Shown here in pieces: positions 38,741-60,674 of a DNA stretch of 64,000 nt. This stretch comes from a virus. The DNA is taken from positions 14,143 to 78,142 of IMG/VR virus record IMGVR_UViG_3300021138_000016. One strand, given 5' to 3'. The notes under the pieces were generated by a model that saw nothing but the letters and a program-made list of their open reading frames with translations, made no database searches and was not told where the DNA came from. The position numbers and the translations under genes were made by a program. How positions within the stretch are numbered: position 1 is the stretch's first letter; each line of letters begins with the position of its first letter.

Positions 38741-41276
38741 GTGGGAGTTTTTTTCTTTGTTCCGCCTCTGCCTCTAATTCTGCCTTTGTTTTTGCTTCTT
38801 GCTGACGGTTATTGCCTTTTTGGTCTATTAATTGTGATTGTGATAGTGTCTTTAATTGTGCAATAAGTTGTTGAAGTTCCATCTTTATTTTACCTTCTTC
38901 ATCAACAAGTGCTATCTTGCTTTGTGTTTGCGCTTGTAACATCATCATTGCTGATTGTTGTTGTGCTTGTTGCATTTCTAAAGCCCTCTGATGTTGAAGT
39001 TCCTCAAAATCGCTTTTCTTTTTCTCCATCTTATTTGCAGCGATAACCATTAATACTGCACCATACTTGTAGTTTTGTTGTATTGTATCTACTATTAATT
39101 GCACGTCTTGGGTTTCTATCTTACCATCCCTTAACATCTGCATTGCCATATTGATAAAGAAATCTGTTTTGGCTTTAACATCCTCTAATGAAACTGTTAG
39201 TGCCAAATCTTCGGCTTCGATTCCTTCAATACTGTCTAATAAAGAAGCGTTTGCAATACCAATGGCACTTGTTAGTTCTTCCCACCTTTGTTTAAAGCCA
39301 TATTTTTTCTTTTCTTTAATCATTGCTAATATATGCTGTACACATCTTTCCCCATACATTATTAGCATTTCCCTACAAGCCTTTTCCATAAACCATATAC
39401 CTTCATTAGCGGCGTTTAGTTGGGATGTTATTGATTGCTCATTTTGTCTTGGGGCAATTTGACCTAAAGAAGCATCAGTAGCGGATAAAGCAACAGTCAT
39501 TTGGTCGTATAATTGCATCATTACTTTTAAGTAATTTTCTGCTTTATCCAAATGTTTTGTATCTATTGGGACAAATAACTTAGAAGGGTCGTTTACTACT
39601 ACATTACCGTTTTTGTCTCTGAATTTAAGCCAAGCCATACCGCTTTGTCTTAGCATCTTCCATTGTTCCATTGCCGCATCGTATCCATTATTCCCAGATG
39701 GCTTATCTTCATCTACGTTGCCTATGTTTTTAGAGTTCGCTTCGTCTGCCACATTCAATAACCCACTTATCAAATCCCAATCCATTGCCAACCCTGTCAT
39801 ATCTTGTACTATACAGTTTTGGAATTTATGCCATAAAGTATTTATTTTAGGCATATAGGCTTGTTTAATATCCATATAAGATGGTCTTTCTACATCTTGC
39901 CAAATAACAAGTGTACTTTTAGCGTATCTCATATCAATACCATATCGGTACATATCAATATCTTTTTTCATATCGAAAATGTACTGCGACTGCCAAGCCC
40001 AATCTGTTTGTTGGTTATTTTGAAGCCTATCTCCGGGCGGTGGGACATAATAACAACTGTACCAAGTGTTGTATATCCTTTGCCTTTTTTCTTCGCTATC
40101 TGTTTCGGGAATCCAATTAAGAGGTTTTGGTTGCCAAGTCTTTATTTTATCATTAACCAATTTTTCGGAAAATGATTCAGCATCTTGTGTAAGTATTGAA
40201 AAGAATCCTACTTGTATAAAAGCATTACTGCCGCTAACTCCCCCTGCTTTGGAGTAACTCATATTGTGACCTGCACCTTGAACCTTATTTAGTTCAAATA
40301 CTTCTTTCAATTGTTCGTCTGTAAGTGTTTCACCAAACCTTCTTACAAATTCTGCAAAGGTTATTAGTTTCTGATGATACCAAAATACAATATCTTCCCC
40401 GTTATGCGTTTTAAAGGGGGATGTAAACAATTCTGTTGGGTCTATGTATTCTACTGTACCCCTACCGTTAGTTTCATCCGTGTACCATCTGCCACAAGCC
40501 CGATTAAAGTTTTTTATATCTCTATTGAAGTCTTGGGATATTATTCTCCACTTATTAAGGTTTATTAAATAGTGTTCTATACCTAATTCAAAAGCTAATT
40601 CAATATTCCCCCTGTAAATGTAAGATTGATATAAGGCAAGTGTTTGGGAATCGTTTATTTGTGATTTTATGTAATCTAAAACCCCACTTATCTTATCTTC
40701 CTTTAAAGTAACATCCTTATCGTCCGATTTTTTACCGCCTTTTGTTGCTAATGATGCAGCATATTTATATGGGTCTTGGCTTTCTGATAGTGGGGACATA
40801 TTTAATTCAACCAAAACGTGATTGATTATATCCCTAAATAAATGCTGATAGATTAACTTGTCTTTTTCTTTCTGCCTTTGCATTTTGGCATACTTATCTA
40901 TTTCGTTTACTTGTATTTTGTTTTCAATCCCAATTTTATCTAGTTTTGCTAAAATGATATTATCTAAATGTGCGTCTATGGGGTTTGCCTTAAAATCTGC
41001 CGAAAAATAAGATGCAGTACCACCGCCGCCTTGTGGTGTTTTAGGGTCAATGATATTTATATACTCTTGTTTGTTTAATTCTAGTACATCTAGTTTTCTG
41101 TAAATTTTTGCTTTTTTGGGGTCTAAAAACCTAGAACTATTTTTTTGTGCATAGAATATGGCTTGTGCTAACCATAACTTAGATAGCTTTAAATCTTCGG
41201 GAAAGAAGTTTAAATCCGACCAAAATAAGGTTATATCTTTAACTTGGGGCGTGTTCGTAATTTTTGGCTTTGCCAT
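38730..41276 (-). CDS. Portal protein (crAss-like)
   Basis: VEYIDPTELF...ITFAEFVRRFGETLTDEQLKEV, NIELAFE, Gln-rich C-terminal coil; lies between TerL and scaffold. Confidence 0.85.
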   Translation of the reverse strand: MAKPKITNTPQVKDITLFWSDLNFFPEDLKLSKLWLAQAIFYAQKNSSRFLDPKKAKIYRKLDVLELNKQEYINIIDPKTPQGGGGTASYFSADFKANPIDAHLDNIILAKLDKIGIENKIQVNEIDKYAKMQRQKEKDKLIYQHLFRDIINHVLVELNMSPLSESQDPYKYAASLATKGGKKSDDKDVTLKEDKISGVLDYIKSQINDSQTLALYQSYIYRGNIELAFELGIEHYLINLNKWRIISQDFNRDIKNFNRACGRWYTDETNGRGTVEYIDPTELFTSPFKTHNGEDIVFWYHQKLITFAEFVRRFGETLTDEQLKEVFELNKVQGAGHNMSYSKAGGVSGSNAFIQVGFFSILTQDAESFSEKLVNDKIKTWQPKPLNWIPETDSEEKRQRIYNTWYSCYYVPPPGDRLQNNQQTDWAWQSQYIFDMKKDIDMYRYGIDMRYAKSTLVIWQDVERPSYMDIKQAYMPKINTLWHKFQNCIVQDMTGLAMDWDLISGLLNVADEANSKNIGNVDEDKPSGNNGYDAAMEQWKMLRQSGMAWLKFRDKNGNVVVNDPSKLFVPIDTKHLDKAENYLKVMMQLYDQMTVALSATDASLGQIAPRQNEQSITSQLNAANEGIWFMEKACREMLIMYGERCVQHILAMIKEKKKYGFKQRWEELTSAIGIANASLLDSIEGIEAEDLALTVSLEDVKAKTDFFINMAMQMLRDGKIETQDVQLIVDTIQQNYKYGAVLMVIAANKMEKKKSDFEELQHQRALEMQQAQQQSAMMMLQAQTQSKIALVDEEGKIKMELQQLIAQLKTLSQSQLIDQKGNNRQQEAKTKAELEAEAEQRKKLPPIQ

Positions 41277-42065: not shown

Positions 42066-44090
42066 TTATTTATTTCTTGGGGGGTTTATTTCCATCATTA
42101 TTTGCATCATTGTTCTAGTACTATTGTCTGTAAGATTTGTTTCTTGTATCTGCTTTAATCCATACTCTAACATTACCTCTGACATTGTTATGTGGGATTC
42201 CTCTGTATTGCTCAAATCGAAATTCTTTTTATCTTCCAAACCTTCTTCAAAAGGGTATTGTTCTAGTTGGTCTATGTCGTTGGGGGATTTTGGTATATCA
42301 AACCTAGTCACCAACATTTGCAATCCATTTTCAGTTGTCTTTGGGGTTGTCCACATTCCCCACTTCTTATCTGTTTCACTTTTCAATAAAAAGTTAGACA
42401 TATTTTCTTCTTCAAATACTTCTTCTGTTGATTCTACCTGTCTTTCTGCCATTACGGGGTATCCCCAAAACTTACAAGCCTTAACGCACTCTTTATGTGC
42501 TATTTTAGGGTCACTTGGACGTTGTAAATATAAGGCACAATATTTATTTGCATTACCACTACCAAAATAATCAAATTTTTGATACACGACTATTGATGCT
42601 TTAGATAGTTTTTTACTGATAGTGTTATCGGTCTTATATCTTATAGGGTCATATCCTATACAACCTTCGGGGTTTATTGGGGGATAGTAAGTACCTTCAC
42701 TACGTCTGAACCTATTTCTTGTATCAATGTTTTTTTCTGTATCAAAGTATGGCATAACGGCAACTAACCAAGCCCCTTCATCGTTCTGTTCAAACCAAAC
42801 CTTGCCTTGTTTATCTTCTACCAAATCCCCTTTAACATAAGGCTTTTGGTCTATTGGGAGTGCGTAAAGATGATTTAACCTTTCGTCAAAACGCATTACC
42901 GAGAAGTAGGTTTTGTCATTTGCCGACATTAACCCGTGTTCTTCTTTTAGTGGCATACGCCTTAACTCAAATACATATTGCTTACTATCTTTTGCGTATT
43001 TGTTTGCTTGCGCCCATACATAAGCCTCACAAGCATCTTTGTTTACTTTGCCAAATCTGGTATAAACAGGGTCACGAACCTTATCGGGGATGTCGGCAGA
43101 GTGTATTGCACTAACGAACCATTTGTATAACCCACTTGTTGTACGGTTATTAGCATCCCTTACAAGGGGATTACTTTCCATATACATCTTACACCCTTCC
43201 TTTACGGCGTTTAATTGGTTGTCACTATCTCCCATTGTAGAAAGAACATCTATCTTACCTTTTATGCCATATTCTACTACACACTTTTTATTAATGTCTA
43301 GTGTTTCCATTGTAGAGGCGGTTGTCCACTTAAAGGCTTCGTCCTGTACTATAAATCTCTTTTTTGTACCATCCATTGCTGATGCTACTGTTGGATAAGC
43401 CCTTGCAGTTCCCCCTAAGTAAGTATTGTTTTCATCACTATCCTCATCTTTAAGAACATTGCAAGTTAATTCTATCCCGTTACGGGGTTTCTTTGATGCA
43501 GGGGTATAAATCTTTTCACGCATCCAAATAGGTCTTGCAAGATATGTTTCTATAAAAGGCAACATCAAAGTTTCCTTTACTTTTTTATCGGTATTACTTT
43601 GTAATCCAACGTGACTATTTTCATCTTCTAGTAGAGTATAAATACCTTCGCTTATTTCCTCTGACGACATACCACTACGCCTACACTTTAGAATACATTT
43701 CCCAAAACAATCTGCATCTTTTCTAACCAAGTCCCTAAAATAAAAGTCTAATCTTTGTTGGTCTAAGTAGTTGGGGTATCCGAAGTCAAACTTATTGAAA
43801 ACAAGAAAGTCATAGTGCATCCCTGTAAGGTAAACCAATTCTCCTCCTATAAGTATCCAAACCCCTTCAAGCCATCTTTTTCTATGCAAGTCTATTATTT
43901 CAATCCTTTTCTTTTCTGTCAATCTTCTTACATCGGGTATGTCGGGGCGTGTCCAAATTTGATTTTGTTTATTATAAACATCAAAGTTTATTATATCTTT
44001 TTCATCATTAGGTACAGACAAAGGGATTTCGTAGGTATATAACCCATCCATTAGTGAAACCGTATTACTATTTGTTACTTTCTTTGACAC
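42066..44090 (-). CDS. terL: Terminase large subunit
   Basis: YLTGMHY, Walker A KCRRSGMS, Walker B FIVQDEAFKW, RNase H-like CIGYDP. Confidence 0.9.
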   Translation of the reverse strand: MSKKVTNSNTVSLMDGLYTYEIPLSVPNDEKDIINFDVYNKQNQIWTRPDIPDVRRLTEKKRIEIIDLHRKRWLEGVWILIGGELVYLTGMHYDFLVFNKFDFGYPNYLDQQRLDFYFRDLVRKDADCFGKCILKCRRSGMSSEEISEGIYTLLEDENSHVGLQSNTDKKVKETLMLPFIETYLARPIWMREKIYTPASKKPRNGIELTCNVLKDEDSDENNTYLGGTARAYPTVASAMDGTKKRFIVQDEAFKWTTASTMETLDINKKCVVEYGIKGKIDVLSTMGDSDNQLNAVKEGCKMYMESNPLVRDANNRTTSGLYKWFVSAIHSADIPDKVRDPVYTRFGKVNKDACEAYVWAQANKYAKDSKQYVFELRRMPLKEEHGLMSANDKTYFSVMRFDERLNHLYALPIDQKPYVKGDLVEDKQGKVWFEQNDEGAWLVAVMPYFDTEKNIDTRNRFRRSEGTYYPPINPEGCIGYDPIRYKTDNTISKKLSKASIVVYQKFDYFGSGNANKYCALYLQRPSDPKIAHKECVKACKFWGYPVMAERQVESTEEVFEEENMSNFLLKSETDKKWGMWTTPKTTENGLQMLVTRFDIPKSPNDIDQLEQYPFEEGLEDKKNFDLSNTEESHITMSEVMLEYGLKQIQETNLTDNSTRTMMQIMMEINPPRNK

Positions 44091-44156: not shown

Positions 44157-44954
44157 TTAGAATTTAACGATGTATTTTTCAAAAATCTCGTTTAAAACAT
44201 CTTTCCCCAATGCTGTTATTTTTAATTTAGTCCCCATTAACTTTCCGCTTTTGCTTATATAACCTTTATTTTGAAGGGTGCTAAATGCCAATTTTATTTT
44301 AGTCTTACTGCTATTGAAAGAATATTTATACAAATCACGCCAAATTGTACTGCTTAATACCTCTTCCCCTGCATATAACCTAATCATTACTTGAAATTCG
44401 GGCATATTTAACTTAGTCCTTAAAGCAATAGTCTTTCTATTAGCTTCATAATTAACTAAGAACCTAGACATATAGTTTGAAGCTATCATCCATTGGTCTT
44501 TAGGTATAGATAGTTTGTTCTTTGATTTTATAAGGTAGTTGTATGTTGGGGAAAGATTAATTGTATTTATTTTGGAAAATGTATCAACCAATTCCTTGCA
44601 TCCTAAAACAAAAATACCCTTACTGATAATATCATCTGAATCTTTTGATTTTAAGTTCTTTTCGTGCAATTCTTTGTACTTAAAAAACTCCTCAACAGAC
44701 ATCCCATTTACATCATCCTCAACTATTAGTATCCACTTCTTTCTTAAAGCCCTAATCAATACAAACATCTTGGATAAGAAACTTAACTTACAACTAGACT
44801 TAGTATCAAATATGTGACCTTTCTTGAAAATTTTATACCCTATGTCTTTAGGTAATAATTCTCTTTGAGCCTCTCCCATAAGTGATGCTTGGCTTTGAAA
44901 ATAGTATTCAAAGTTTTCGTTCTGCAAATCAAATTTACTATTGCCTATATTCAT
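44157..44954 (-). CDS. Winged-helix (MarR-like) DNA-binding protein
   Basis: LNMPEFQVM...IKLAFSTLQNKGYISK...LKITALGKDVL. Confidence 0.6.
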   Translation of the reverse strand: MNIGNSKFDLQNENFEYYFQSQASLMGEAQRELLPKDIGYKIFKKGHIFDTKSSCKLSFLSKMFVLIRALRKKWILIVEDDVNGMSVEEFFKYKELHEKNLKSKDSDDIISKGIFVLGCKELVDTFSKINTINLSPTYNYLIKSKNKLSIPKDQWMIASNYMSRFLVNYEANRKTIALRTKLNMPEFQVMIRLYAGEEVLSSTIWRDLYKYSFNSSKTKIKLAFSTLQNKGYISKSGKLMGTKLKITALGKDVLNEIFEKYIVKF

Positions 44955-45127
44955 TAGTTGTTAGGTTTAGTTTTCAATACTTCGTGGGGGTTGCTTGGGC
45001 AAGTACACATTTCCTTATAGAAAATAAGTTTGCCACACTCACAAGTCCTGCCATCAAACTGTAAGTCGTTTGGTTGTGGTATAACCCCATCAACCTTATG
45101 TGCATCTTTACAAGGTTTGTTATCCAT
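44954..45127 (-). CDS. 57-aa Cys-rich protein (not in ORF track)
   Basis: MDNKPCKDAHK...TCECGK...MCTCPSNPHE...NN*, overlapping both neighbouring genes. Confidence 0.65.
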   Translation of the reverse strand: MDNKPCKDAHKVDGVIPQPNDLQFDGRTCECGKLIFYKEMCTCPSNPHEVLKTKPNN

Positions 45128-46106
45128 CGCTAAAAGTGTTTAGTTGGATTTCTTTGAATTGAAACCCGTGATTAACAATAATTTTTTCTAATTGATTTAT
45201 CCTATTACTCCAAGTGTGATTTGATAGAAATAATCTATTGGTGGCTTTTGCAGCCCCCTGTACAAAAAAGTCCCTATACAAAGCAGCGTGACATATTTCA
45301 CCTAATTCTTTAAAGTTAGACCATTTGTAAATAAAATCTTCTGACAATCCTTTTATATCTTGGTGAACCGTGAATATACCACAAGCCAATGCCCTAAAAT
45401 CCCTATCACTACAATATCCTTCACGTTCAAAGTTGTTTTGGGTAAATGTTATCTTGGCTGAATTGTAACAAAGTATTTCTTCTTGTGGGTTTAGGAATCC
45501 ACCTTTTTGCCCCAACCCATAAGCCTTAAACTTGTCTCCAAATTCTTTCTCCATATACTCAATTACTTCTTGTCGTTCTTTTGACTTAGGGAAGTTTAAG
45601 TTTGAGTTTTGATAGTTACTACCTATGAATACTATTGGGGGAAAATCAAATATAGTGTTCTTGTTATTAAACTTTCGATACATTTTAGTATCACAACTTG
45701 GTTGCATATAATCAACGTTGTTAATCCCTTTTTCTTTTAGTTGTGCAACACTTTCTCTATCACAAAAAAGAATAAGATTTAAGTGTGGGGCAAGTTCTTC
45801 TATGAAGTCAATATTGTCCCTTACATCTACTGTATAAAAAAAAGTAAATCCCAACTTAGACAACTCCGATGCAGTATAACTGTCTAAAGAACCTTCGTTT
45901 TGCATTTGAATAAATATCAAATCGGGTTCTTCCATTGCTGCTTTAGCAATAAGTCGTGGGGAAACCCCCTCTATCCCTGCGTTTAGCTTTACTTTCTGCC
46001 AATCAATTTCAGAAACTTCCCATCCATTGCTTTCAAATGCTTCGCTTATCCCCGTATTTGGATATGCGGCACTTGTTTGTCTGATGTGTAATACTTTCTT
46101 TATCAT
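45120..46106 (-). CDS. Glycosyltransferase, GT-B (CgeB/Glyco_trans_1_2-like)
   Basis: VFIGSNY, YNSAKI, SDRDFRALACG, HTWSNR. Confidence 0.8.
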   Translation of the reverse strand: MIKKVLHIRQTSAAYPNTGISEAFESNGWEVSEIDWQKVKLNAGIEGVSPRLIAKAAMEEPDLIFIQMQNEGSLDSYTASELSKLGFTFFYTVDVRDNIDFIEELAPHLNLILFCDRESVAQLKEKGINNVDYMQPSCDTKMYRKFNNKNTIFDFPPIVFIGSNYQNSNLNFPKSKERQEVIEYMEKEFGDKFKAYGLGQKGGFLNPQEEILCYNSAKITFTQNNFEREGYCSDRDFRALACGIFTVHQDIKGLSEDFIYKWSNFKELGEICHAALYRDFFVQGAAKATNRLFLSNHTWSNRINQLEKIIVNHGFQFKEIQLNTFSDG

Positions 46107-46419
46107 TTGTCTTTTTTTATTGCTTTAATATGTTCCGTATAATAACTTAAAGAAAATAAAGAATGTTTTATTAATAACTTCTTACCTTCTTCCAAATATT
46201 TATCTAAGTCATTATGCCCCCACTCTTCTGGGTCAAAACTAATTCGGACTTCTTTTGTTGTTCTCTTACTTTCTTTATGTTTTATATAAAAAAATAAGCA
46301 ATCTCTCTGCCGCCAGAACTAATAAAATCGTGAACCCAATCTTTGTAAAAAAAATCTGTACCCTCAAAAGATTGTTTTAAAATACTGTCTAAATAAAGTA
46401 ATTCATTAATTTGTATCAT
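46103..46419 (-). pseudogene. ~105-aa gene interrupted by a one-base frameshift at a poly-T tract
   Basis: ATG at 46419 and TGA at 46103 both form ATGA overlaps with neighbours. The span is 317 nt; one added T at the tract near 46288-46294 restores the frame. Confidence 0.55.
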
Positions 46420-47084
46420 ATATTATTTGTTAATCGGTTAAAATTTTGTTCCATCATTATTGAAAAATCAACAACTCCCAATTCTTTATTATAAATACTA
46501 TCAAGACCTTTATGCTTTAATGGGTCGTAGTTGAATATGTCTGATTTAGTAGGTCTTTGTGTAAATATCATTGGGTTACTGCAATAACACTTGCCTAATG
46601 GCTGTATCTTTCTCATAATACTTACATCTATTGGTTGTGTTTCATCTTCCAAGAGGGGCAAGATTAGATTTATCGCTTCCTTCGAGTAAAATGTAGCGTG
46701 TAAAGCGTATGAAGCTGTTATTTTAAGTATGTTTTCAGATACTTTAGTAGGTGGAACTAATAAGTTTACCCCTAAGTGTAGGCAATGATAGTCTTTAGGG
46801 ATTTGTTGCAAACATTCTGAAATAAACCCTTCTGTACCTTCTATAAATTTAGCATCATCTTCAAATACAAGTATATTTTCATAATTCATTAGTTTGGCTA
46901 TTGAAAAAAGGCTGTGCATTGTCTTAATTAAACCAACATAACCTTCTTTGTTTCTTAAAGCATCAAACTTAACCCATTCAATCCCCAATGAATCCAATTC
47001 CTTACCCAACACATCAAGTCTATCCGACTTTCTTTCGGGCAATGAAATAATAAAAACCTTATCTACAAAATCATTAATTAGCAT
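46416..47084 (-). CDS. Glycosyltransferase family 25-like
   Basis: FIISLPERKSDR, ILVFEDDAKF, PIDV. Confidence 0.8.
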   Translation of the reverse strand: MLINDFVDKVFIISLPERKSDRLDVLGKELDSLGIEWVKFDALRNKEGYVGLIKTMHSLFSIAKLMNYENILVFEDDAKFIEGTEGFISECLQQIPKDYHCLHLGVNLLVPPTKVSENILKITASYALHATFYSKEAINLILPLLEDETQPIDVSIMRKIQPLGKCYCSNPMIFTQRPTKSDIFNYDPLKHKGLDSIYNKELGVVDFSIMMEQNFNRLTNNI

Positions 47085-48621
47085 CTGTTATTATTTGATA
47101 CTTGAAAGAAATAAACTTGTTGGTTATCGTTTTCTTGACCCCTTCGTAAGTAAAAAATTCATTGAACATTGCTTTACAGTTTTCTTGCAATATCCATATT
47201 TGCTTTTCGGGATATGATTGCAATATAATATCAATGTCATTTATTTCTGCTTCACTAATAACAATACCAAATCTTTCAAATTGTTCTTTTGTCAGTCCGT
47301 ATGGATATAAATGCTTGTCAGAAATGTAAACAGGGATACTACCTTGCTCAACCGCTTCCATTATTCTAAAACTACTCAATCCAAACCCCCTAAAACATAA
47401 AGTAAAAACAGATTGTGCCATTATATCGCAATATTCTTGCATTGAATGATTATCTGTTGATATGTAGTAGTTGGGGTTGTTTCTTAAAGATTTAATACCT
47501 TCACTTCTTAGGGGGTTTGTTAATCTGCCAACAAAGTTCGCCAAGTACTTCTTATCTGTTTTTTTTGATTTGCCGTGTGGCTTACAGATAAGTGGCAGTA
47601 TATAGTCACATTGCTCGTCACACATACCAAATACCTTTATGTCTAAGTTGCTTAAATCGTTGATAACCCCCAAATCAAATTGGCAAATAGTAAAATACTT
47701 CTTTGACTTGTCTAGCTTATCCAAATAGGATTGTAATTGCTTTATCGCTAGTGTATCGTTACCGAAATTGTGGTTTTTATAATAAGCAGTCCACATAATA
47801 GGTAGATACTCTCTGTCTTTCACTTCTCCTTTGTATGTTGATGCAAACCATTCCTCAAATATTTGTTCGTTATCTGATGGATACTTGCTTGTTTCTTTAG
47901 GGGTAAATAATTTGGGGATGCCAAAATCGTTAAATTCTTCCAATAGCTTAGGTATATACCTTTTTTCTGCGAATTTCAAGGCACTTTTAGCGGGTTCACG
48001 TCTAATATAGAACGCATCACCCCATCCTGCCCCTGTCATTGATAATTCTACCCTATCAAACCCATTTCTTTCCAAAAATTCGTCTATTTCGTGCAGTTTA
48101 GGCACTCCCTTGTAGACTTCTCCCGTGTTTACCTCACAATAAATGTACTTCATCTGCTTTAAAAAGTTACCAAGACCTTTTAAAGCCATCAATTCAGCAC
48201 CCTGTATGTCTAAATTTAAGAAAAAATCAGAAACGTCCACTCTTTGTATTCTTAAAAAAGTGTCTAATCGCTTTGTAGTAAGTTGTATTTTACTTACAAA
48301 TGATACTTCGGGGTGGTTTGTTGTGTGTGTACCAAAATCAAATATTGAACTGCTTTCCCCTTTGTTAGAAGAAACATTAAATTGCACTACTTCACCGTCT
48401 TTGTCGCCTACACATACATTGTACGCCTTGTGTGTGGGGTAATCTTTCAGTATTTCTTTTGCTGAATTAAATGTTTCGGGCAATGCATCTACCCAATAAA
48501 CGTTTTCAAGACCATTACGTTTGTAATCCTCTCTTTCTTGGAAGTAATTAGCCCCAACGTGAAGTACCCCGTTTGCTTTTATATTGTATTTGTTATTTAG
48601 AAAGTCTAGTTTAATCAGCAT
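47074..48621 (-). CDS. Fusion of FkbM-family methyltransferase and exostosin (GT47)-like glycosyltransferase
   Basis: N-half LHVGAN...LNLDIQGAELMALKG; C-half SVFTLCFRGFGLSSFRIMEAVEQGSIPVYISD. Confidence 0.85.
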   Translation of the reverse strand: MLIKLDFLNNKYNIKANGVLHVGANYFQEREDYKRNGLENVYWVDALPETFNSAKEILKDYPTHKAYNVCVGDKDGEVVQFNVSSNKGESSSIFDFGTHTTNHPEVSFVSKIQLTTKRLDTFLRIQRVDVSDFFLNLDIQGAELMALKGLGNFLKQMKYIYCEVNTGEVYKGVPKLHEIDEFLERNGFDRVELSMTGAGWGDAFYIRREPAKSALKFAEKRYIPKLLEEFNDFGIPKLFTPKETSKYPSDNEQIFEEWFASTYKGEVKDREYLPIMWTAYYKNHNFGNDTLAIKQLQSYLDKLDKSKKYFTICQFDLGVINDLSNLDIKVFGMCDEQCDYILPLICKPHGKSKKTDKKYLANFVGRLTNPLRSEGIKSLRNNPNYYISTDNHSMQEYCDIMAQSVFTLCFRGFGLSSFRIMEAVEQGSIPVYISDKHLYPYGLTKEQFERFGIVISEAEINDIDIILQSYPEKQIWILQENCKAMFNEFFTYEGVKKTITNKFISFKYQIITDAN

Positions 48622-48633
48622 TTTTTTTATTTT

Positions 48634-48834
48634 TTAATTATCAGATATTATTTCACATTGGTCTAACCTAGCATATACATAATCCCCATGTCCATGTATT
48701 TCAATTATTAAAGGACTATCTAAAAATGACATATTATTATCCAAATCTTTTACTACTATTGTGCCTTTAGGATATTTATAAATAGTCCCATAAACATCTT
48801 TTTCTATTTGTTCTTTCAAAACAAGATTTCTCAT
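48634..48834 (-). CDS. Hypothetical protein
   Basis: 66-aa ORF within the GT cluster. Confidence 0.55.
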   Translation of the reverse strand: MRNLVLKEQIEKDVYGTIYKYPKGTIVVKDLDNNMSFLDSPLIIEIHGHGDYVYARLDQCEIISDN

Positions 48835-49452
48835 TTACTTTTTAGTTATAATTATTAGTTTTTCATCTGCCTCTATTGAAACAGACTTTATTAGGTTTTG
48901 GAATACTTTACTTTCCCCATCACTAAAGAACTTGTTTTGTATTTTACCTGTTTCCAAGTAGTTTTTAAACATCCATAGTGGGGTATCTTCAAATACATTT
49001 ACTCCTTCGCCCCAATAAAATTCATCCTTGCAGCAATGGGTATCCTCTATAAAGTAAACACCGCCACTATTTAAGTTATTTACAAATAAGTGTTTAAAGG
49101 TTATTATTTGGTGGGCAGAGTTATGTGACGCATCTTCTGAAATTAATTCAAATTTTTGATGTATCCTAGATAAAGCATCTATATCTGTTTGGCTACATTG
49201 ATAAGGGACAAAAAAGTGTTCCCTACACCATCTTTGGGTAGTGTGGTTGGGGTCTAAAAACAAATCAACACAATGAATATCAACCTTGCTTTGAAAGTAA
49301 TCATTAAACATAAGCAATGATGCCCCTTTTGCAATACCAACTTCTAAATATGCTAATGTATTTTTAGGGATATATTTTTCGTAAAAAGGTAAATACCCGT
49401 GTTCTACTTTATCTGTTTTGTATCTTCTTCCAAGTGTTTCTAAATATGACAT
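48835..49452 (-). CDS. Class I SAM-dependent (sugar) O-methyltransferase
   Basis: TDK..HGY..FYE, LEVGIAKGASL, EDASH, GGVYFIED (MycE-like pattern). Confidence 0.8.
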   Translation of the reverse strand: MSYLETLGRRYKTDKVEHGYLPFYEKYIPKNTLAYLEVGIAKGASLLMFNDYFQSKVDIHCVDLFLDPNHTTQRWCREHFFVPYQCSQTDIDALSRIHQKFELISEDASHNSAHQIITFKHLFVNNLNSGGVYFIEDTHCCKDEFYWGEGVNVFEDTPLWMFKNYLETGKIQNKFFSDGESKVFQNLIKSVSIEADEKLIIITKK

Positions 49453-49455
49453 TTA

Positions 49456-50253
49456 TTAGTATTTAATTTGATGAAAATAATCGGGTATTATTGTTTCAGT
49501 AGAAAGGTGCTTGTTATCTTCTCCAAACCAATTTTCTTTTGAAGGGGATATGCAAATTTTATTTTGTGAATCAGAAAGTATTGCAGCAATTAAACTAAAT
49601 GTGCTATTGCTAATTATAAAATTTGCACAACCAAGCATTAATAAAAAATCTTCACTATCGCTTTTACCTTCTGAAAATAATACGCTATCTGCATTTAAAA
49701 TAGGGTCAAATAATTTATTAAACCCTATTAAATTATTTTTACACCAATCTATATCATCAGAAAAAACAATAAACATAGGTCTTAATGGCATTATACCATT
49801 AATAAAATGAGCGGATTCACATATATATTCATAAGTTACACAAGGATGCTTTGAAGACAACTTAACATAATCTCCACGCCTAACGTGCAATGCGACTGTT
49901 CTTCTATTTTTAACAGAACAATCAAATAACATTATCTCTCTTATCTGTATCAAGTAATCTTTAAAATACAATTCGCTTTGCCTATACCCATCAATAACTA
50001 TGTTTATATTTCTCCATTCTTCTTTAAATGGGATTTCTTCGTAAGCGTGCGATTTTTCTGTAAGTATTATTGTTTGTACTGATGGATTCCATTCGGGGTT
50101 TTCTAAGTGTGTTATTGCAGGATTCCATACACTATCATTAAGGGTATGTGCAGGGATATGGTAATCTAATCCGTGTTTCAAAGCATAAGCAATAGCGCAA
50201 AATGCTTGAAAGTATTGGTTTCCCATCCGCCCGTATAACTTAACAGAAACCAT
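49456..50253 (-). CDS. Alpha-1,2-fucosyltransferase-like (GT11)
   Basis: GRMGNQYFQ, HVRRGDY, FSDDIDWCK, NSTFS. Confidence 0.88.
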   Translation of the reverse strand: MVSVKLYGRMGNQYFQAFCAIAYALKHGLDYHIPAHTLNDSVWNPAITHLENPEWNPSVQTIILTEKSHAYEEIPFKEEWRNINIVIDGYRQSELYFKDYLIQIREIMLFDCSVKNRRTVALHVRRGDYVKLSSKHPCVTYEYICESAHFINGIMPLRPMFIVFSDDIDWCKNNLIGFNKLFDPILNADSVLFSEGKSDSEDFLLMLGCANFIISNSTFSLIAAILSDSQNKICISPSKENWFGEDNKHLSTETIIPDYFHQIKY

Positions 50254-50257
50254 TTTT

Positions 50258-50402
50258 AAAAAAAAATTTATATCCTAACCGTGTGGGGTTTGCAAAGAAA
50301 GTTATGCCTTATAGAAGGAGTAAATTCTACCACCACACGGTTACGATGTATCTAAAAACTATTTTTAATTTTAACCATAACTTTCTTTGCGCTACAAATA
50401 TA
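50258..50402 (-). promoter_or_regulatory. Promoter plus structured leader (pseudoknot/attenuator) upstream of GT11
   Basis: -7 TATATTTG at 50402-50395. Interleaved inverted repeats 50292-50306/50376-50390 (15 bp) and 50276-50286/50333-50343 (11 bp), then a T run on the minus strand. Confidence 0.65.
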
Positions 50403-50412
50403 GTGAAACTTA

Positions 50413-51102
50413 TTAAAGTAGTTTAATCTTTTTTTCAAGTGACATTGCATCAGCCATATTCTTGTGTACATTCTTCATAAACCCCGATTCATCGTGTACT
50501 AAATGATTATACCACATATCTTCTACTACTGTAAACGTTCCTCCTTTTTTCAAGTGGTTATATAGGTGGTTGATAGTATCTGCTTCTAGTATTTCACTAT
50601 CGTACTCAAAAGCGTTTATGTATGTTTCTTTATGGCAAACGTAGTTGCAAGTATTTAAGCAAGCCCCGAAAAATGGTACTCCTATAAACTGTTTAACACT
50701 ATCACTATCAAATAGGATATTTTGAAATTGTCTATAATCAAATCTAGGCATAGCCCAACTTGGCATATAAATACATTTTGGTTCTAGTACTTCGGGGATA
50801 TGTTCGATATAGTGTTCTGTCAATTCATTATCACTATCCAAAAGGATAACCCAATCGTTATAAGAATATGCAACCGCATCACGCTTGTTTCTTTGCATCC
50901 CCCTATTCCTTACTTGTTGTACTAATCTTACTTTTGGTTCATCTTTAAAATACTCATTCAACTTCTCAAAAGAACCGTCTGTACTAGCATCATCCAAAAT
51001 AAGAATATCCCCTATTCTATCATTGTTTAATACCTTTTCAAAAGACTTTATCGTTAATTCATAACGATTGTAATTAGTAATTGCTAAACTTAATTGCTGC
51101 AT
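50413..51102 (-). CDS. Glycosyltransferase family 2
   Basis: AITNYNR, LDDASTDGS, LLDSDN. Confidence 0.88.
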   Translation of the reverse strand: MQQLSLAITNYNRYELTIKSFEKVLNNDRIGDILILDDASTDGSFEKLNEYFKDEPKVRLVQQVRNRGMQRNKRDAVAYSYNDWVILLDSDNELTEHYIEHIPEVLEPKCIYMPSWAMPRFDYRQFQNILFDSDSVKQFIGVPFFGACLNTCNYVCHKETYINAFEYDSEILEADTINHLYNHLKKGGTFTVVEDMWYNHLVHDESGFMKNVHKNMADAMSLEKKIKLL

Positions 51103-51863: not shown

Positions 51864-52226
51864 TTAGTGGTTATCTTTATTCCAGTGTTCTTTTAATTGC
51901 TCTCTAAAAGTTTCGTATGGGTCTTCGTATTGCTCCCCCTTTAAGTATAAATCATAAATACTTTCGTCTGTTGAACCCATCCAAGTAACTATCCCCCCTC
52001 CTAAAATAGTGTGCTTTATGTGCATATAATTACTTTCTCTACGTTTATAAACATCTCTAAATTTTGCAAAGTCAATACTTTTTTCTTTTAATAATGCTTC
52101 ATTAAATAAATCGAATTTAGGTAATAACTTATTTGTATTATTTATTTTATTAATAGATTCTTTCTGTTGTTCTTCTGTTGGCATATTGTTTATATTGTAT
52201 AATATCAATGTTTTTGGCGTAGCCAT
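51864..52226 (-). CDS. Hypothetical protein
   Basis: 120-aa ORF. Confidence 0.55.
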   Translation of the reverse strand: MATPKTLILYNINNMPTEEQQKESINKINNTNKLLPKFDLFNEALLKEKSIDFAKFRDVYKRRESNYMHIKHTILGGGIVTWMGSTDESIYDLYLKGEQYEDPYETFREQLKEHWNKDNH

Positions 52227-52238
52227 TATTTATTAAAT

Positions 52239-52445
52239 TTAGTTGTTATTATCTTTAAAATTATCAATAATTTCTGCTGCTGGGTCAAACTTTTCTAAAA
52301 CCAAAGTTACGTTTACCCATATACCACAAGGTAAGGCTACCTTAGCTAATATTTCAGATTCATATTCAACACCTTCTTTTTTTATTCTTTCTAAGAGATA
52401 CTCTAATTGTTCATCAAATATATCTGTGATATTATCGTGTGGCAT
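52239..52445 (-). CDS. Small acidic hypothetical protein
   Basis: 68-aa ORF. Confidence 0.55.
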   Translation of the reverse strand: MPHDNITDIFDEQLEYLLERIKKEGVEYESEILAKVALPCGIWVNVTLVLEKFDPAAEIIDNFKDNNN

Positions 52446-52470
52446 TATTTAATAAATTTAGTCTGTTAAA

Positions 52471-52713
52471 TTAACCTGCATTAAAAGATGCTAATTCTAC
52501 CCCTCTTGTTGCGCCTTCGATTGCAATGCCGATTAATTTGCAAGTTATATTTTCACTTAATTTAGCCCAACTTGACCGCATTGTATTTTCTACAAATGTG
52601 CTTCCATCGGGATGTATAGTTCTTGCATCTTGTTCGCTTTCTGCACATACTATCATATTGTCGTATGTATCGTAATCATTGTTGTCTGTTTGTTCTAATA
52701 AATAAAGATTCAT
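52471..52713 (-). CDS. Conserved phage hypothetical protein
   Basis: YDTYD..IVCAESEQDAR..HP motif, recalled from many phages. Confidence 0.65.
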   Translation of the reverse strand: MNLYLLEQTDNNDYDTYDNMIVCAESEQDARTIHPDGSTFVENTMRSSWAKLSENITCKLIGIAIEGATRGVELASFNAG

Positions 52714-52714
52714 T

Positions 52715-53290
52715 TTAATTAAATTTAAGCATTAAATAATTTAGTTTTTCTATGTACTCCCTTCTTAATTCAATTAGTTCGTTTAGGGTGAATTTATGTA
52801 CCAAGTGAGATTGTTCAATTAAGTAGGTTGTTATCCCTTTATGTAGGGATTCTAAAGCATCAGTGTATGGGGCTTTGTCGGTATTGTGTATTTCATTGCA
52901 ACGTGGGCAACTTTCATTGCAGTTATTAAAGTCAAACCTTAATCCTAAGTGCCTTCTATCTATATAGTGGGAATTGTGCATTTTTGTCCAATGATTACGA
53001 CCTTTCCCCTTACAAACTACACAATCAACAAACCCCGAAACATCACTATGCCTAATCCTTACTATCTTACTTGTTAGTACATCTAAATCGTTAATGACAT
53101 TTTGCATACTTTCCCCTTGTATTCCTAACACTTCACTTTCTCTTTTCTTTGAGAATTTAGAAATAGGTTTAGGGGGGTTTTCACGCATATAGCATTCCTT
53201 TAACATCCCCTTTGCCCATATCCTGCCTTCACGTTTACAACCGCATTTGCATTTTTTGTTCTTAGGTATTATTGTTGAATTAAAAGACAT
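52715..53290 (-). CDS. ninG: NinG/Rap-like HNH recombination endonuclease
   Basis: LD..SKIVRIR..CVVC..HYIDRR..LRFD..NC...CPRCN. Confidence 0.8.
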   Translation of the reverse strand: MSFNSTIIPKNKKCKCGCKREGRIWAKGMLKECYMRENPPKPISKFSKKRESEVLGIQGESMQNVINDLDVLTSKIVRIRHSDVSGFVDCVVCKGKGRNHWTKMHNSHYIDRRHLGLRFDFNNCNESCPRCNEIHNTDKAPYTDALESLHKGITTYLIEQSHLVHKFTLNELIELRREYIEKLNYLMLKFN

Positions 53291-53429
53291 TTATAAAAAT
53301 TTAAAAAATAAAACTTAGTTAGTAACCTATTATTTCAGACAGTAGGCTTCTCACCTCGCTTTTATCTGTCATTATCATTCTAACAATGCGGTTGCGACAT
53401 CGAAAATTATAAACCTATTTCACGGCGTT

Positions 53430-53732
53430 TTATTTTTTAGTGTTACTACTTCCTTTTTCTTGTACTGTAATAGAATCCCAAAACCCATCACTATCATCTA
53501 ATAATTCTAGTGGGAGATTGTTGTCTGCAATTACTTTAATTGCTTCTGTCCTTGCTTCGTTACCAACCCCCTTAGCAATCTTACCATAAACTAAACAATC
53601 ATCATATACCATTAGGTTTTTCTTTTTGTAGAATAATCTTCTAAAGGTATCTAGCGGGGTTTCTTCGCCCCCTGTTTCCGATAATCCCCCCTCGTAAACA
53701 TAAGGTTCTTTGTTATCATTTTTTTTACTCAT
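53430..53732 (-). CDS. Hypothetical protein (first gene of the leftward operon)
   Basis: 100-aa ORF downstream of a promoter. Confidence 0.6.
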   Translation of the reverse strand: MSKKNDNKEPYVYEGGLSETGGEETPLDTFRRLFYKKKNLMVYDDCLVYGKIAKGVGNEARTEAIKVIADNNLPLELLDDSDGFWDSITVQEKGSSNTKK

Positions 53733-53758
53733 AACTTTTTATTTTTTTTAGTACGGGA

Positions 53759-53844
53759 CAAAAGTAATAATTAATTCGGAATAGTAACCAAAAAATTTCT
53801 GAAAAAAAATAATTTCTTATGTAAATGTTTTTTTACTATGTTTG
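53759..53844. promoter_or_regulatory. Divergent Bacteroidota promoters
   Basis: Minus-strand -7 TACTTTTG (53766-53759) and plus-strand -7 TATGTTTG (53837-53844) at the strand switch. Confidence 0.65.
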
Positions 53845-56834: not shown

Positions 56835-56852
56835 ACAATAAAAATAAACACA

Positions 56853-57161: not shown

Positions 57162-57192
57162 TTTTTTAATCAAACAATAAATACAAACAGTT

Positions 57193-57624: not shown

Positions 57625-57637
57625 AATTTAACTAAAC

Positions 57638-57709
57638 GGCTCAAATTTTAATCTTAATGTATTTTGTGTACAATGTACCCAAAATTAAATTATCGTTGAA
57701 ATTTGAGCC
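57638..57709. other. Long intergenic hairpin after ssb
   Basis: Outer stem ggctcaaattttaa / ttgaaatttgagcc; inner stem attttg-gtac / gtac-caaaat. Confidence 0.55.
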
Positions 57710-60672: not shown

Positions 60673-60674
60673 TT

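What the first reader, a model, noticed from the sequence alone, without database searches (positions are those of the whole stretch)
45120..51102. Phage-encoded glycan assembly line (GT2, GT11, O-methyltransferase, FkbM-GT47, GT25, CgeB-like GT) upstream of the terminase
Seen: five glycosyltransferase domains and two SAM methyltransferase domains are co-oriented with and directly upstream of the packaging and virion genes. None has a signal peptide, and no nucleotide-sugar synthesis, flippase or polymerase gene is visible. Known: some phages glycosylate their virions, and Bacteroidota O-glycans commonly contain fucose and O-methylated sugars. Inference: the cluster builds a fucosylated, methylated glycan from host NDP-sugars. 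It may go onto capsid proteins in the cytoplasm, or remodel the host lipid-linked glycan that then ends up on the exported fibres or the cell surface. Together with the 3751-8039 genes this would form a two-part virion glyco-engineering system.
Basis: partly seen in the sequence, partly recalled or inferred. Interest (0 to 1): 0.8.

Follow-up and report, generated by a model that had tools for sequence, protein, structure and literature searches.

The report
Swappable sugar-chain gene island in phage
An uncultured 78-kb freshwater phage carries, just before its DNA-packaging gene, six intact soluble enzymes (five sugar-adding and two methyl-adding domains); they should build a short methylated sugar chain, most likely on its own particle, though the target is not shown and such phage gene sets are already known.

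Summary
Window 45120-51102 (minus strand) encodes GT2, GT11, a class-I methyltransferase, an FkbM-GT47 fusion, GT25 and a CgeB-like GT-B enzyme. All are soluble, and their catalytic motifs are conserved among relatives. They are packed against a zinc-ribbon gene, a winged-helix protein and the large terminase.

The complete genome has no recognisable NDP-sugar, flippase, polymerase, hydroxymethylase or TET gene.

Relatives add three points:
- The CgeB-like GT and zinc ribbon are fused in five relatives. They form a phage-only family kept in about 16 of 20 related phages.
- The other enzymes form a swappable cassette in at least five versions, some with sugar epimerase/dehydratase and C-methyltransferase genes and homing endonucleases.
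- Cassette type follows the portal and putative capsid lineage, not the adjacent terminase.

DNA glycosylation is unlikely, because restriction sites are almost purged (GATC 0 seen, 203 expected).

The proposed link to exported fibres is not supported. Signal-peptide fibres also occur in relatives with no cassette.

Best reading: glycosylation of the phage's own particle (about 0.45). The main rival is remodelling of host lipid-linked glycans (about 0.25).

This scan has already reported at least 20 similar cassettes in other phages. I rate it a new variant of a known kind, of moderate interest.

The parts
50413..51102 (-). GT2-family (GT-A) glycosyltransferase, 229 aa
   Evidence: PF00535 E 1.8e-18. 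The DD (res 37-38) and DSDN (res 89-92) motifs are invariant in 7 homologues. No TM or signal peptide. Its start overlaps the stop of the upstream 65-aa ORF.
50254..50412 (-). 159-nt intergenic spacer between the GT2 and GT11 genes
   Evidence: One of the two gaps in the cluster, the other being 46107-46415. Another first-reader note (e1-6066581) flags it as a leader/attenuator. I did not test that.
49456..50253 (-). GT11-family glycosyltransferase (alpha-1,2-fucosyltransferase type), 265 aa
   Evidence: PF01531 E 4.5e-24 and PHROG 2644 E 5.5e-34. The H and first R of HVRRGDY (113-119) are invariant, the G, D and Y conserved in at least 75%; S of the SNSTFS block is invariant in 8 homologues. 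It is 31-34% identical to cyanophage GT11 genes in 102 records.
48835..49452 (-). Class-I SAM methyltransferase (Methyltransf_24 / TylF-like), 205 aa
   Evidence: PF13578 at 23.1 bits, just under the cut-off. PHROG 21658 E 2.5e-22. Motif LE.G.a.G.S is conserved. It is 28-33% identical to mycobacteriophage methyltransferases that sit beside GT and head genes.
48634..48834 (-). 66-aa ORF of unknown function inside the cluster
   Evidence: ORF list. No Pfam or PHROG match. tblastn at E <= 1e-3 found no match in the four relatives L002-L005; the larger locus set was searched only at stricter cut-offs.
47074..48621 (-). Bifunctional FkbM methyltransferase (res 22-188) fused to a GT47/exostosin-like GT-B glycosyltransferase (res 347-469), 515 aa
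   Evidence: PF05050 E 1.2e-17, PF03016 E 4.4e-15, PF24785 E 1.2e-07. The same fusion appears in more than 110 protein clusters, all on contigs of 88 kb or less, with only one named organism. It is split into two genes in L029.
46416..47084 (-). GT25-family glycosyltransferase, 222 aa
   Evidence: PF01755 at 28.8 bits against a 24-bit cut-off. EDD (75-77) is invariant in 10 homologues. Its start overlaps the stop of the FkbM-GT47 gene.
46107..46415 (-). 309-nt gap with only 30- and 45-aa ORFs; possibly a rearrangement scar
   Evidence: Sequence and ORFs. In L013 and L026 the order is CgeB-like GT then GT25; here it is the reverse.
45120..46106 (-). Anchor enzyme: CgeB-like GT-B glycosyltransferase (PF13524), 328 aa, a phage-clade-specific family
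   Evidence: PF13524 E 4.3e-09. AF2 model pLDDT 87.9; best PDB folds are GT4 enzymes MshA, GlgM, PglA and BshA. A profile search finds 73 relatives at E <= 1.5e-62, then nothing until 1e-11, all on contigs of 94 kb or less. Present upstream of TerL in about 16 of 20 informative related loci.
44954..45127 (-). 57-aa Cys/His zinc-ribbon protein, a detachable C-terminal domain of the anchor GT
   Evidence: Homologous sequence is fused to the C-terminus of the GT in L003, L009, L036, L037 and L042. It is a separate adjacent ORF here and in L002, L005, L016, L019, L029 and L043. No Pfam match.
44157..44954 (-). 265-aa conserved protein with a weak winged-helix signal; probable small terminase or DNA-binding packaging protein (context)
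   Evidence: Found in nearly all relatives, including some without the anchor GT. Only a sub-threshold SarA/Rot wHTH match, E 0.015. The function is inferred from position.
42066..44090 (-). Large terminase subunit (context)
   Evidence: PHROG 6681 E 1.2e-53. 236 relatives found at E <= 1e-10; the best 120 listed are 43-63% identical, many on 60-100 kb contigs.
53759..53792 (-). Bacteroidota-type promoter-like site (TTTG-N-TAnnTTTG) at the head of the minus-strand gene run that contains the cluster
   Evidence: Pattern match. The pattern is not enriched in the window as a whole (9 seen, 6.6 expected), so position and orientation are the only support. No convincing minus-strand terminator lies between here and TerL.

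Best explanation
The region is a working, modular glycan-building island of an uncultured freshwater phage. The phage is a distant relative of the Pachyviridae and probably infects Bacteroidota.

The island has two parts:
- A conserved anchor: the CgeB-like GT-B enzyme and its zinc-ribbon module.
- A swappable cassette: GT25, FkbM-GT47, a methyltransferase, GT11 and GT2.

All the enzymes are soluble and cytoplasmic. They use host-made nucleotide sugars.

Inferred mechanism: the anchor enzyme puts a first sugar on a conserved phage-specified acceptor. The cassette enzymes extend it to roughly a penta-saccharide that carries a fucose-type residue and up to two methyl groups.

The most likely acceptor is a protein of the particle assembled in the cytoplasm (capsid or another head/tail protein). 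This would give each phage lineage its own surface glycan, as shown for mycobacteriophages and giant viruses.

Shown here: enzyme identities, intact motifs, solubility, the anchor-plus-cassette architecture, the phage-only distribution of the key families, and co-inheritance with the structural module.

Inferred: the order of action, the glycan size and, above all, the acceptor.
For: - Enzyme families and solubility.
- Catalytic motifs are invariant in homologues that are only 30-50% identical.
- The genes are tightly packed and co-oriented with TerL, with no internal minus-strand terminator.
- Anchor family: 73 relatives at E <= 1.5e-62, all on phage-sized contigs, then a gap to 1e-11. The zinc ribbon is fused to it in five relatives.
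- The Atlas and BFVD place the anchor among viral PF13524 proteins, including giant-virus CgeB-like GTs, a viral GT2+PF13524 fusion and a bacterial PF13524+Maf_flag10_N architecture.
- The cassette is hypervariable at a fixed site upstream of TerL: at least five versions, some with SDR epimerase/dehydratase, sugar C-methyltransferase, TylF, GT8 and homing endonucleases. This pattern is typical of surface-glycan loci.
- Cassette type follows the portal/p497 lineage (p497 is 71-76% identical among window-type phages), while the adjacent TerL is mosaic at 41-45%.
- The same enzyme families occur in phages of unrelated hosts. The FkbM-GT47 fusion is in more than 110 clusters on contigs of 88 kb or less. 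GT11 is in 102 cyanophage records. The methyltransferase is in mycobacteriophages; in phage Omega it follows the major head protein and a GT. A phage-intrinsic target explains this spread more simply than a host-specific envelope pathway.
- Mycobacteriophage O-methyltransferase plus tandem GTs are reported to modify capsid and tail-tube proteins (PMC11600133 and PMC12619734, both citing Freeman et al. 2023).
- The cluster is 99+% identical in four independent freshwater runs from 2012-2016.
Against: - No acceptor is identified.
- p497, the putative major capsid protein, has no Ser/Thr-rich tail or insertion that tracks the cassette. Its identity as the capsid protein rests on gene position only, because the AF2 model failed at pLDDT 40 and there were no PDB or PHROG matches.
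- Soluble GT4-like enzymes such as PglA and PimB, which are among the best fold matches, act on lipid-linked acceptors. The fold therefore does not separate a protein target from a lipid target.
- Co-inheritance with structural genes could simply reflect vertical descent plus terminase exchange driven by homing endonucleases.
- Cultured Pachyviridae lack the island (Gundel_1), and four related loci lack the anchor GT, so it is not essential for particle assembly.
Confidence: 0.45

Rival explanations
1. Remodelling of a host lipid-linked glycan. The soluble phage GTs and MTs act at the cytoplasmic face of the membrane on undecaprenyl-PP-linked intermediates of the host general O-glycan, LPS or capsule. 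The host flippase and transferase then export the altered glycan. It would end up on the cell surface, giving superinfection exclusion or stopping progeny from sticking to debris. It could also end up on the phage's own Sec-exported fibres.
For: - PglA, PimB' and MshA-type enzymes are among the best fold matches of the anchor GT.
- GT11, GT25 and GT2 are classically LPS/O-antigen families (established knowledge of CAZy families).
- Cyanophage homologues sit in clusters annotated as LPS or capsule synthesis (PMC12801897).
- This phage does encode fibre-type proteins with Sec-type signals, and the 783-aa one is enriched in the Bacteroidota O-glycosylation motif: 12 sites seen, 2.8 expected.
- No phosphoglycosyl-transferase or flippase is needed if the host supplies them.
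Against: - Signal-peptide fibres also occur in G001 (no GT2, FkbM or CgeB-like GT found) and G002 (anchor GT only), so there is no co-variation.
- The key families (anchor GT, FkbM-GT47 fusion) are phage-specific and spread over phages of very different host phyla. That is hard to reconcile with dependence on one host lipid-linked core.
- The phage has no integrase or other sign of lysogeny at Pfam level. Classical serotype conversion is therefore not the setting.
- No Gtr-type membrane proteins are present.
Confidence: 0.25
2. DNA hypermodification. The GTs build a glycan on a hydroxylated base of the phage DNA before or during packaging, which would explain the position next to the terminase. 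The modification would protect the DNA from restriction and CRISPR.
For: - The cluster is adjacent to the packaging genes.
- Phage GT-A and GT-B enzymes, sometimes several per cluster, are known to glycosylate 5hmC or 5hoC DNA (bioRxiv 10.1101/2023.12.21.572611; PMC13326640).
- Terminase-neighbouring GTs were seen in that metagenome survey.
Against: - The whole genome has no thymidylate-synthase-like hydroxymethylase/hydroxylase, no TET/5mYOX, no C5-methyltransferase and no recognisable DNA polymerase of its own.
- Restriction sites are almost completely purged: GATC 0 seen/203 expected, CGCG 0/36, GGCC 1/98, CCGG 2/83, CCAG 25/125. This implies the DNA is exposed to restriction rather than blanket-protected.
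- T4 alpha- and beta-GT are not among the 50 best fold matches.
- FkbM/TylF-type methyltransferases and a fucosyltransferase-type enzyme point to an oligosaccharide of a kind I did not find reported on DNA in the papers I consulted.
Confidence: 0.04
3. Another cytoplasmic target. The glycan is placed on a host protein or small molecule as a takeover or anti-defence measure, or it is a free or secreted oligosaccharide acting as a decoy. In this reading the island's place beside the terminase is only a permissive insertion hotspot.
For: - The site is a hotspot for foreign genes: homing endonucleases (HNH_3/NUMOD4, GIY-YIG) and even a GroEL-like chaperonin lie in the same island in relatives.
- Four relatives do without the anchor GT.
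- GT4-like relatives include small-molecule glycosyltransferases such as MshA and BshA.
Against: - The anchor GT-zinc ribbon pair is retained over deep divergence (30-40% identity).
- Cassette type is co-inherited with the structural lineage.
- The islands combine methylated and deoxy-sugar tailoring enzymes, which is typical of surface glycans.
Confidence: 0.2

Closest known systems
Mycobacteriophage virion O-glycosylation cassettes (cluster O/Corndog-type O-methyltransferase plus three tandem GTs; Che8; Freeman et al. 2023 as cited in PMC11600133 and PMC12619734)
   Same: - Soluble GTs together with a SAM methyltransferase, encoded next to or inside the structural/packaging module of a tailed phage.
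- Variable between related phages.
- The window's methyltransferase is a detectable homologue (28-33% identity) of mycobacteriophage methyltransferases that lie beside GT and head genes.
   Different: - Different host phylum.
- More enzymes here: five GT domains.
- The GT families (GT11, GT25, GT47-like, PF13524) gave no hits in mycobacteriophage records; the GT2 enzyme was not searched.
- No Ser/Thr-rich C-terminal acceptor tail was seen in the putative capsid protein.
- Glycosylated particles are not demonstrated here.
Cyanomyovirus 'LPS / cell-wall synthesis and modification' GT clusters (S-SM2, P-SSM2, S-SKS1, S-SCSM2R; PMC12801897)
   Same: - Homologous GT11 (31-34% identity, 102 records), FkbM (37%) and GT47-like (29%) enzymes.
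- The function of those clusters is equally unproven.
   Different: - There the genes lie in the hyperplastic auxiliary-gene region of 150-250 kb T4-like genomes, together with NDP-sugar and heptose genes.
- Here they form a compact island fused to the packaging operon of a 78-kb podovirus-like genome, have no sugar-activation genes and are anchored by a clade-specific GT-zinc ribbon pair.
Giant-virus capsid and fibril glycosylation machinery (chlorovirus and mimivirus-type virus-encoded GT/MT clusters)
   Same: - Host-independent cytoplasmic GTs, including GT-methyltransferase fusions and CgeB-like GT-B domains, decorate the virus's own particle (from my own knowledge of that literature).
- The best viral structural matches of the anchor GT are CgeB-like proteins of Hokovirus, Yasminevirus and Tupanvirus.
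   Different: - Those are eukaryotic viruses.
- Similarity is at fold level only (13-18% identity).
- No shared gene order.
Phage DNA glycosylation pathways (T4 alpha/beta-GT; 5mYOX- or ThyA-homologue-linked GT clusters)
   Same: Phage-encoded GT-A and GT-B enzymes, sometimes several in a row and sometimes near the terminase (bioRxiv 10.1101/2023.12.21.572611).
   Different: - No base-hydroxylating enzyme is present.
- Restriction-site avoidance is extreme.
- Sugar-methylating enzymes and a fucosyltransferase-type enzyme are present.

Membership tests
Pfam/CAZy-type enzyme families of the seven domains | Match above the curated family threshold | tested here: met
   GT2 67.4/23.3 bits, GT11 85.6/23.9, FkbM 65/22.7, GT47 56.2/33.4, GT25 28.8/24, PF13524 36.9/25. 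The exception is Methyltransf_24 at 23.1/26.3, just below threshold; it is supported instead by PHROG 21658 at E 2.5e-22.
Pfam/CAZy-type enzyme families of the seven domains | Catalytic or cofactor motifs intact (GT-A DxD; GT11 HxRRxD; SAM motif I) | tested here: met
   DD and DSDN (GT2), H-x-R-x-x-D (GT11), EDD (GT25) and LE.G.a.G.S (MT24) are invariant or at least 75% conserved among 5-10 phage homologues.
Mycobacteriophage-type virion glycosylation cassette | Soluble GT(s) with or without an O-methyltransferase, encoded in or beside the structural/packaging module | tested here: met
Mycobacteriophage-type virion glycosylation cassette | Glycans demonstrated on capsid and/or tail-tube subunits | not testable with these tools
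   Needs purified particles and mass spectrometry. The phage is uncultured.
Mycobacteriophage-type virion glycosylation cassette | C-terminal acceptor region on the major capsid or tail-tube protein | tested here: inconclusive
   The putative capsid protein p497 has no Ser/Thr-rich tail or cassette-linked insertion. Its identity is unconfirmed.
Mycobacteriophage-type virion glycosylation cassette | Sequence homology of the enzymes | tested here: inconclusive
   Only the methyltransferase has mycobacteriophage homologues (E 2e-9 to 6e-6). The GTs searched have none among isolate mycobacteriophages; GT2 was not searched.
Phage DNA glycosylation system | Enzyme that creates a hydroxylated base (ThyA-like hydroxymethylase/5hoC synthase, or C5-MT plus TET/5mYOX) | tested here: not met
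   None found in the whole genome at Pfam E <= 1e-3. Unassigned ORFs remain.
Phage DNA glycosylation system | DNA shielded from restriction, so little selection against restriction sites | tested here: not met
   GATC 0/203, CGCG 0/36, GGCC 1/98, CCGG 2/83 observed/expected.
Serotype-converting O-antigen modification modules (GtrABC/Oac type) | Membrane-embedded flippase/transferase components and a temperate life style | tested here: not met
   No TM segments in the cluster. No integrase or Gtr families in the genome.
Cyanomyovirus LPS-like GT clusters | Homologous GT11 / FkbM / GT47-like genes | tested here: met
   For GT25 only huge uncultured phages gave hits.
Cyanomyovirus LPS-like GT clusters | Clustered with phage-encoded NDP-sugar and heptose synthesis genes in the auxiliary-gene region | tested here: not met
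   There are no such genes in this genome, and the island is joined to the packaging operon. Relatives L022, L036 and L037 do carry an SDR epimerase/dehydratase.

The most novel reading that the evidence does not exclude
The phage rewrites the host's general O-glycosylation pathway. Its soluble GTs and MTs would rebuild the undecaprenyl-linked glycan in the cytoplasm. The host flippase and oligosaccharyl-transferase would then place a phage-specified, methylated, fucose-type glycan on the phage's own Sec-exported, motif-rich fibres in the periplasm. That would be a virus-programmed periplasmic glyco-maturation route for host-recognition proteins, which I found described in no paper.
Probability: 0.1. 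Interest if true: 0.85.

Novelty: new variant of a known kind. Interest (0 to 1): 0.45.

Why it matters
- Sugar coats on phage particles have been demonstrated only for a few mycobacteriophages, where they blunt antibody recognition.
- This work shows that a whole clade of uncultured freshwater and soil phages, with probable Bacteroidota hosts, keeps a dedicated anchor glycosyltransferase and exchanges the rest of the pathway like a serotype cassette.
- The key enzyme families (the CgeB-like anchor and the FkbM-GT47 fusion) are essentially phage-only and widespread.
- If the target is the particle, virion glycosylation would be a general, diversifying trait of environmental phages. That would bear on adsorption, aggregation, grazing and defence evasion, and on phage-display and therapy design.
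- If the target is the host's lipid-linked glycan, this would be a new kind of host-surface takeover by a lytic phage.
- Either way, the anchor GT plus zinc ribbon is a well-defined and tractable entry point for biochemistry.

Tried and rejected
- Megablast of the cluster against isolate phages found nothing.
- A single-protein TerL scan of viral contigs found no relatives. It succeeded only with an alignment.
The genomic context of the 70+ anchor-GT homologues and 110+ FkbM-GT47 homologues could therefore not be inspected; only contig lengths are known.
- A PDB sequence-profile search with the anchor GT found nothing.
- tblastn of the anchor GT and of p497 against isolate phages found nothing.
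- PHROG and Pfam gave nothing for the virion proteins, the zinc ribbon or the small ORFs.
- The AF2 model of the putative capsid protein p497 was unusable (pLDDT 39.9). No fold search was made, and its capsid identity stays an inference.
- The fibre protein 4700-7051 has no detectable homologue in the four related full records. Fibres were therefore compared by signal-peptide and motif heuristics only.
- hhalign of two unassigned L022 proteins against the anchor-GT profile was negative.
- A scan for Ser/Thr-rich tracts in non-exported virion proteins showed nothing that tracks the cassette.
- Sequencing runs: no RNA holder is listed. Contig lay-down showed no cassette deletions or joints inside 44-51 kb.
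- Complex prediction and the search of protein representatives were not used. An enzyme-substrate pair with an unmodellable partner was judged unlikely to give a verdict.
- I considered classical serotype conversion and rejected it, because there are no membrane components and no integrase.

Full report
**1. What is there**

The window is bases 14143-78142 of a 78,142-bp IMG/VR virus record that CheckV rates complete. On the minus strand a long co-oriented gene run starts behind a Bacteroidota-type promoter-like site at 53759-53792. In order it holds:
- a NinG/HNH protein and several small ORFs;
- the cluster in question;
- a 57-aa Cys-rich ORF;
- a 265-aa protein;
- TerL (42066-44090; PHROG 6681, E 1.2e-53);
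- a portal-like 848-aa protein, weakly similar to the Tenacibaculum phage Gundel_1 portal (Pachyviridae);
- the rest of the virion module.

Most genes overlap or abut. No convincing minus-strand terminator lies inside the cluster. None of the proteins has a transmembrane or signal-like hydrophobic segment.

**2. The rest of the genome**

I scanned all other sizeable ORFs of the 78-kb genome against Pfam. The hits were replication and nuclease functions only: DnaB, a DEAD-type helicase, SSB, a sliding clamp, a DnaA-type HTH, an N6/N4 DNA methylase, GIY-YIG/NUMOD endonucleases and a non-specific endonuclease.

The scan found none of the following:
- nucleotide-sugar enzyme;
- phosphoglycosyl-transferase;
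- Wzx/Wzy;
- integrase;
- thymidylate-synthase-like enzyme;
- TET/5mYOX;
- recognisable DNA polymerase.

The caveat is that many ORFs have no family.

**3. Are the enzymes functional?**

Homologues from related phages are only 30-50% identical, yet they keep the diagnostic residues: DD and DSDN in GT2, H-x-R-x-x-D and the S-x-S-T-x-S block in GT11, EDD in GT25, and SAM motif I in the methyltransferase.

The cluster is 99+% identical in contigs from four independent freshwater runs dated 2012-2016, with no internal deletions.

**4. Comparative anatomy**

TerL has 236 relatives at E <= 1e-10; the best 120 listed are 43-63% identical, many on 60-100 kb contigs. A TerL alignment retrieved 4 viral and 37 metagenomic loci, each with up to 10 kb of flank.

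Mapping the window's proteins onto them and annotating unmatched ORFs gives this picture.

(a) *The anchor.* The CgeB-like GT lies upstream of TerL in about 16 of 20 informative loci. The 57-aa Cys/His ORF is detected alongside it in most of these (not in L009 or L015), and the 265-aa protein is present in nearly all loci.
- In L003, L009, L036, L037 and L042 the Cys/His module is fused to the C-terminus of the GT. The two are therefore one functional unit.
- A profile of this GT finds 73 proteins at E <= 1.5e-62 and then nothing until 1e-11. All sit on contigs of 94 kb or less. It has no hit in isolate phages.
- It is a phage-clade-specific family, not a recent host acquisition.

(b) *The cassette.* The other enzymes form a swappable set with at least five versions:
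- Window type (GT2, GT11, MT24, FkbM-GT47, GT25): L013, L026, L029, L014, L015.
- L003 type (GT2, GT11, two MT24/TylF, a second GT25, one or two stand-alone FkbM): L003, L036, L037 and L009 (L010 by its visible end only). L036 and L037 also carry a GDP-mannose-dehydratase-like SDR between the GT2 and GT11 genes.
- L022: SDR epimerase/dehydratase, sugar C-methyltransferase (Methyltransf_14), Methyltransf_11, MT24 and GT25.
- L042: GT2, TylF and FkbM.
- L005, L019 and L027: GT2 and FkbM between the 265-aa gene and TerL, plus GT8 in L005.
- L002 and L016 have the anchor alone. L004 and L039 have nothing.
- HNH_3/NUMOD4 and GIY-YIG homing endonucleases are scattered through the islands, and L015 even holds a GroEL-like gene.

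(c) *Co-inheritance.* Identity matrices show that cassette type follows the structural lineage.
- p497 is 71-76% identical among window-type phages, about 53% to L002 and L016, and 41-45% to the L003 group. The portal gives the same groups.
- TerL lies between the cassette and the portal, yet it is mosaic: the window's TerL is 61% identical to L002's and 55% to L003's, but only 41-45% to those of window-type phages.

**5. What the anchor enzyme looks like**

The AF2 model is confident (pLDDT 87.9, pTM 0.84). It is a GT-B fold closest to GT4 enzymes: MshA, GlgM, a methylmannose-polysaccharide mannosyltransferase, PglA, BshA, PimB' and a chlorovirus GT. T4 alpha- and beta-glucosyltransferases are not among the 50 best matches.

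Among viral models the best matches are CgeB-like proteins of giant viruses (Hokovirus, Yasminevirus, Tupanvirus) and of uncultured Caudovirales. The ESM Atlas points to viral PF13524 clusters, a viral GT2+PF13524 fusion and a bacterial PF13524+Maf_flag10_N architecture. I treat these as leads only.

The fold does not reveal the acceptor.

**6. Which acceptor?**

*DNA.* Unlikely, about 0.04.
- No base-hydroxylating enzyme and no own polymerase.
- The genome is almost purged of short palindromes: GATC 0 observed/203 expected, CGCG 0/36, GGCC 1/98, CCGG 2/83, CATG 35/196 and CCAG 25/125. That is the signature of DNA exposed to restriction.
- Related phages show no link between cassette and avoidance. 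G003, with a full cassette, does not avoid these sites, while G001, with none, avoids GATC, CGCG and CTAG.

*Host lipid-linked glycan, possibly ending on exported fibres.* Possible, about 0.25.
- I re-detected the Sec-type signals on the fibre genes. The 783-aa protein carries 12 D[ST][AILVMT] sites against 2.8 expected.
- The same kind of signal-peptide fibres, some also motif-rich, occurs in all five full records. That includes G001 (no GT2, FkbM or anchor GT) and G002 (anchor only).

*The phage particle.* Most likely, about 0.45.
- The key families are phage-only.
- The same enzyme families occur in phages of cyanobacteria and actinobacteria. In mycobacteriophage Omega, a homologue of the window's methyltransferase follows the major head protein and a GT.
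- The island diversifies like a surface-glycan locus and travels with the structural lineage.
- The only experimentally characterised phage GT + O-methyltransferase cassettes modify capsid and tail-tube proteins (PMC11600133 and PMC12619734, citing Freeman et al. 2023, which is not held in the library).

*Against the particle reading.* No acceptor feature was found in p497, and its capsid identity is unconfirmed.

*Other cytoplasmic targets.* I leave about 0.2 for these.

**7. Comparison with what is known, and novelty**

Multi-GT/MT cassettes in phages are known. They are proven in mycobacteriophages and unexplained in cyanomyoviruses (PMC12801897). This scan has already logged at least 20 similar cassettes beside terminase, portal or head genes in other phages.

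What is specific here:
- the anchor GT-zinc ribbon unit conserved across a deep clade;
- a documented set of at least five alternative cassettes at one site;
- the contrast between cassette/structural co-inheritance and terminase mosaicism;
- sequence evidence against DNA as the target;
- the coexistence with exported fibres, which I could not link to the cassette.

I rate it a new variant of a known kind, of moderate interest.

Noticed in passing
whole genome G000 (window 1-64000 plus L006): Extreme avoidance of short palindromes: GATC 0 observed/203 expected, CGCG 0/36, GGCC 1/98, CCGG 2/83, CATG 35/196, CCAG/CTGG 25/125. Relatives avoid different sets: G001 avoids GATC, CGCG and CTAG; G004 avoids CCGG, CGCG, GGCC and GATC; G002 avoids CCWGG only; G003 avoids none. 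This confirms another first-reader note (e1-6066573) and suggests different host restriction repertoires.
   Followed up: partly
window 42066-44090 versus 34973-36466 and 38730-41276; loci L002-L042: TerL is mosaic relative to the portal and the 497-aa putative capsid protein. The window's TerL groups with L002, L016, L022 and L003 (55-64% identity), but its p497 groups with L014, L026 and L029 (71-72%). The TerL-portal block appears to be exchanged between lineages, perhaps through the homing endonucleases seen nearby.
   Followed up: partly
L015:2927-4489: A related phage carries a 520-aa GroEL/Cpn60-family chaperonin gene (PF00118, E 7.9e-62) inside the island, between its GT25 and zinc-ribbon genes.
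   Followed up: no
L022:1760-4178; L036:1518-2489; L037:1312-2283: Relatives carry nucleotide-sugar tailoring genes in the same island. L022 has an SDR epimerase/dehydratase plus a sugar C-methyltransferase (Methyltransf_14, E 1.1e-41). L036 has a GDP-mannose-dehydratase-like SDR between its GT2 and GT11 genes; the same-sized ORF at that place in L037 was not scanned.
   Followed up: partly
L029:1636-2367, 4469-5638, 7702-8448; L042:4629-5219, 5809-6309; L015:348-1067: HNH_3/NUMOD4 and GIY-YIG/NUMOD homing-endonuclease genes are interspersed among the GT genes of relatives. In L029 one lies between the split FkbM and GT47 halves.
   Followed up: no
G001 57779-62889; G002 21370-25866; G003 12469-19397; G004 56384-60956; window 4700-8039: Large fibre-type proteins with Bacteroidota-style Sec signal peptides occur in all five full genomes of this phage group, whatever their GT content. 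Several are enriched in the D[ST][AILVMT] motif at z >= 3; others are not (G002 1498 aa z 2.4, the window's 326-aa protein z 1.2). Detection was by heuristic.
   Followed up: partly
window 34973-36466: The 497-aa protein is the best conserved structural protein and lies in the usual capsid-gene position. It has no PHROG, Pfam or PDB sequence match, and AF2 with 13 sequences gives an unusable model (pLDDT 39.9). It may be a divergent or unusual capsid fold.
   Followed up: partly
window 52224-53778 (run X5): A 17-kb contig in a 2012 freshwater run shares the NinG-region genes at about 90-95% identity, but has 218 and 2977 other letters in place of two short stretches. A related phage with different small early genes coexisted in that sample.
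   Followed up: no
L026:6679-7902: In this relative the anchor GT has an unrelated C-terminal extension of about 80 aa in place of the zinc ribbon, and a separate zinc-ribbon ORF lies further downstream.
   Followed up: no
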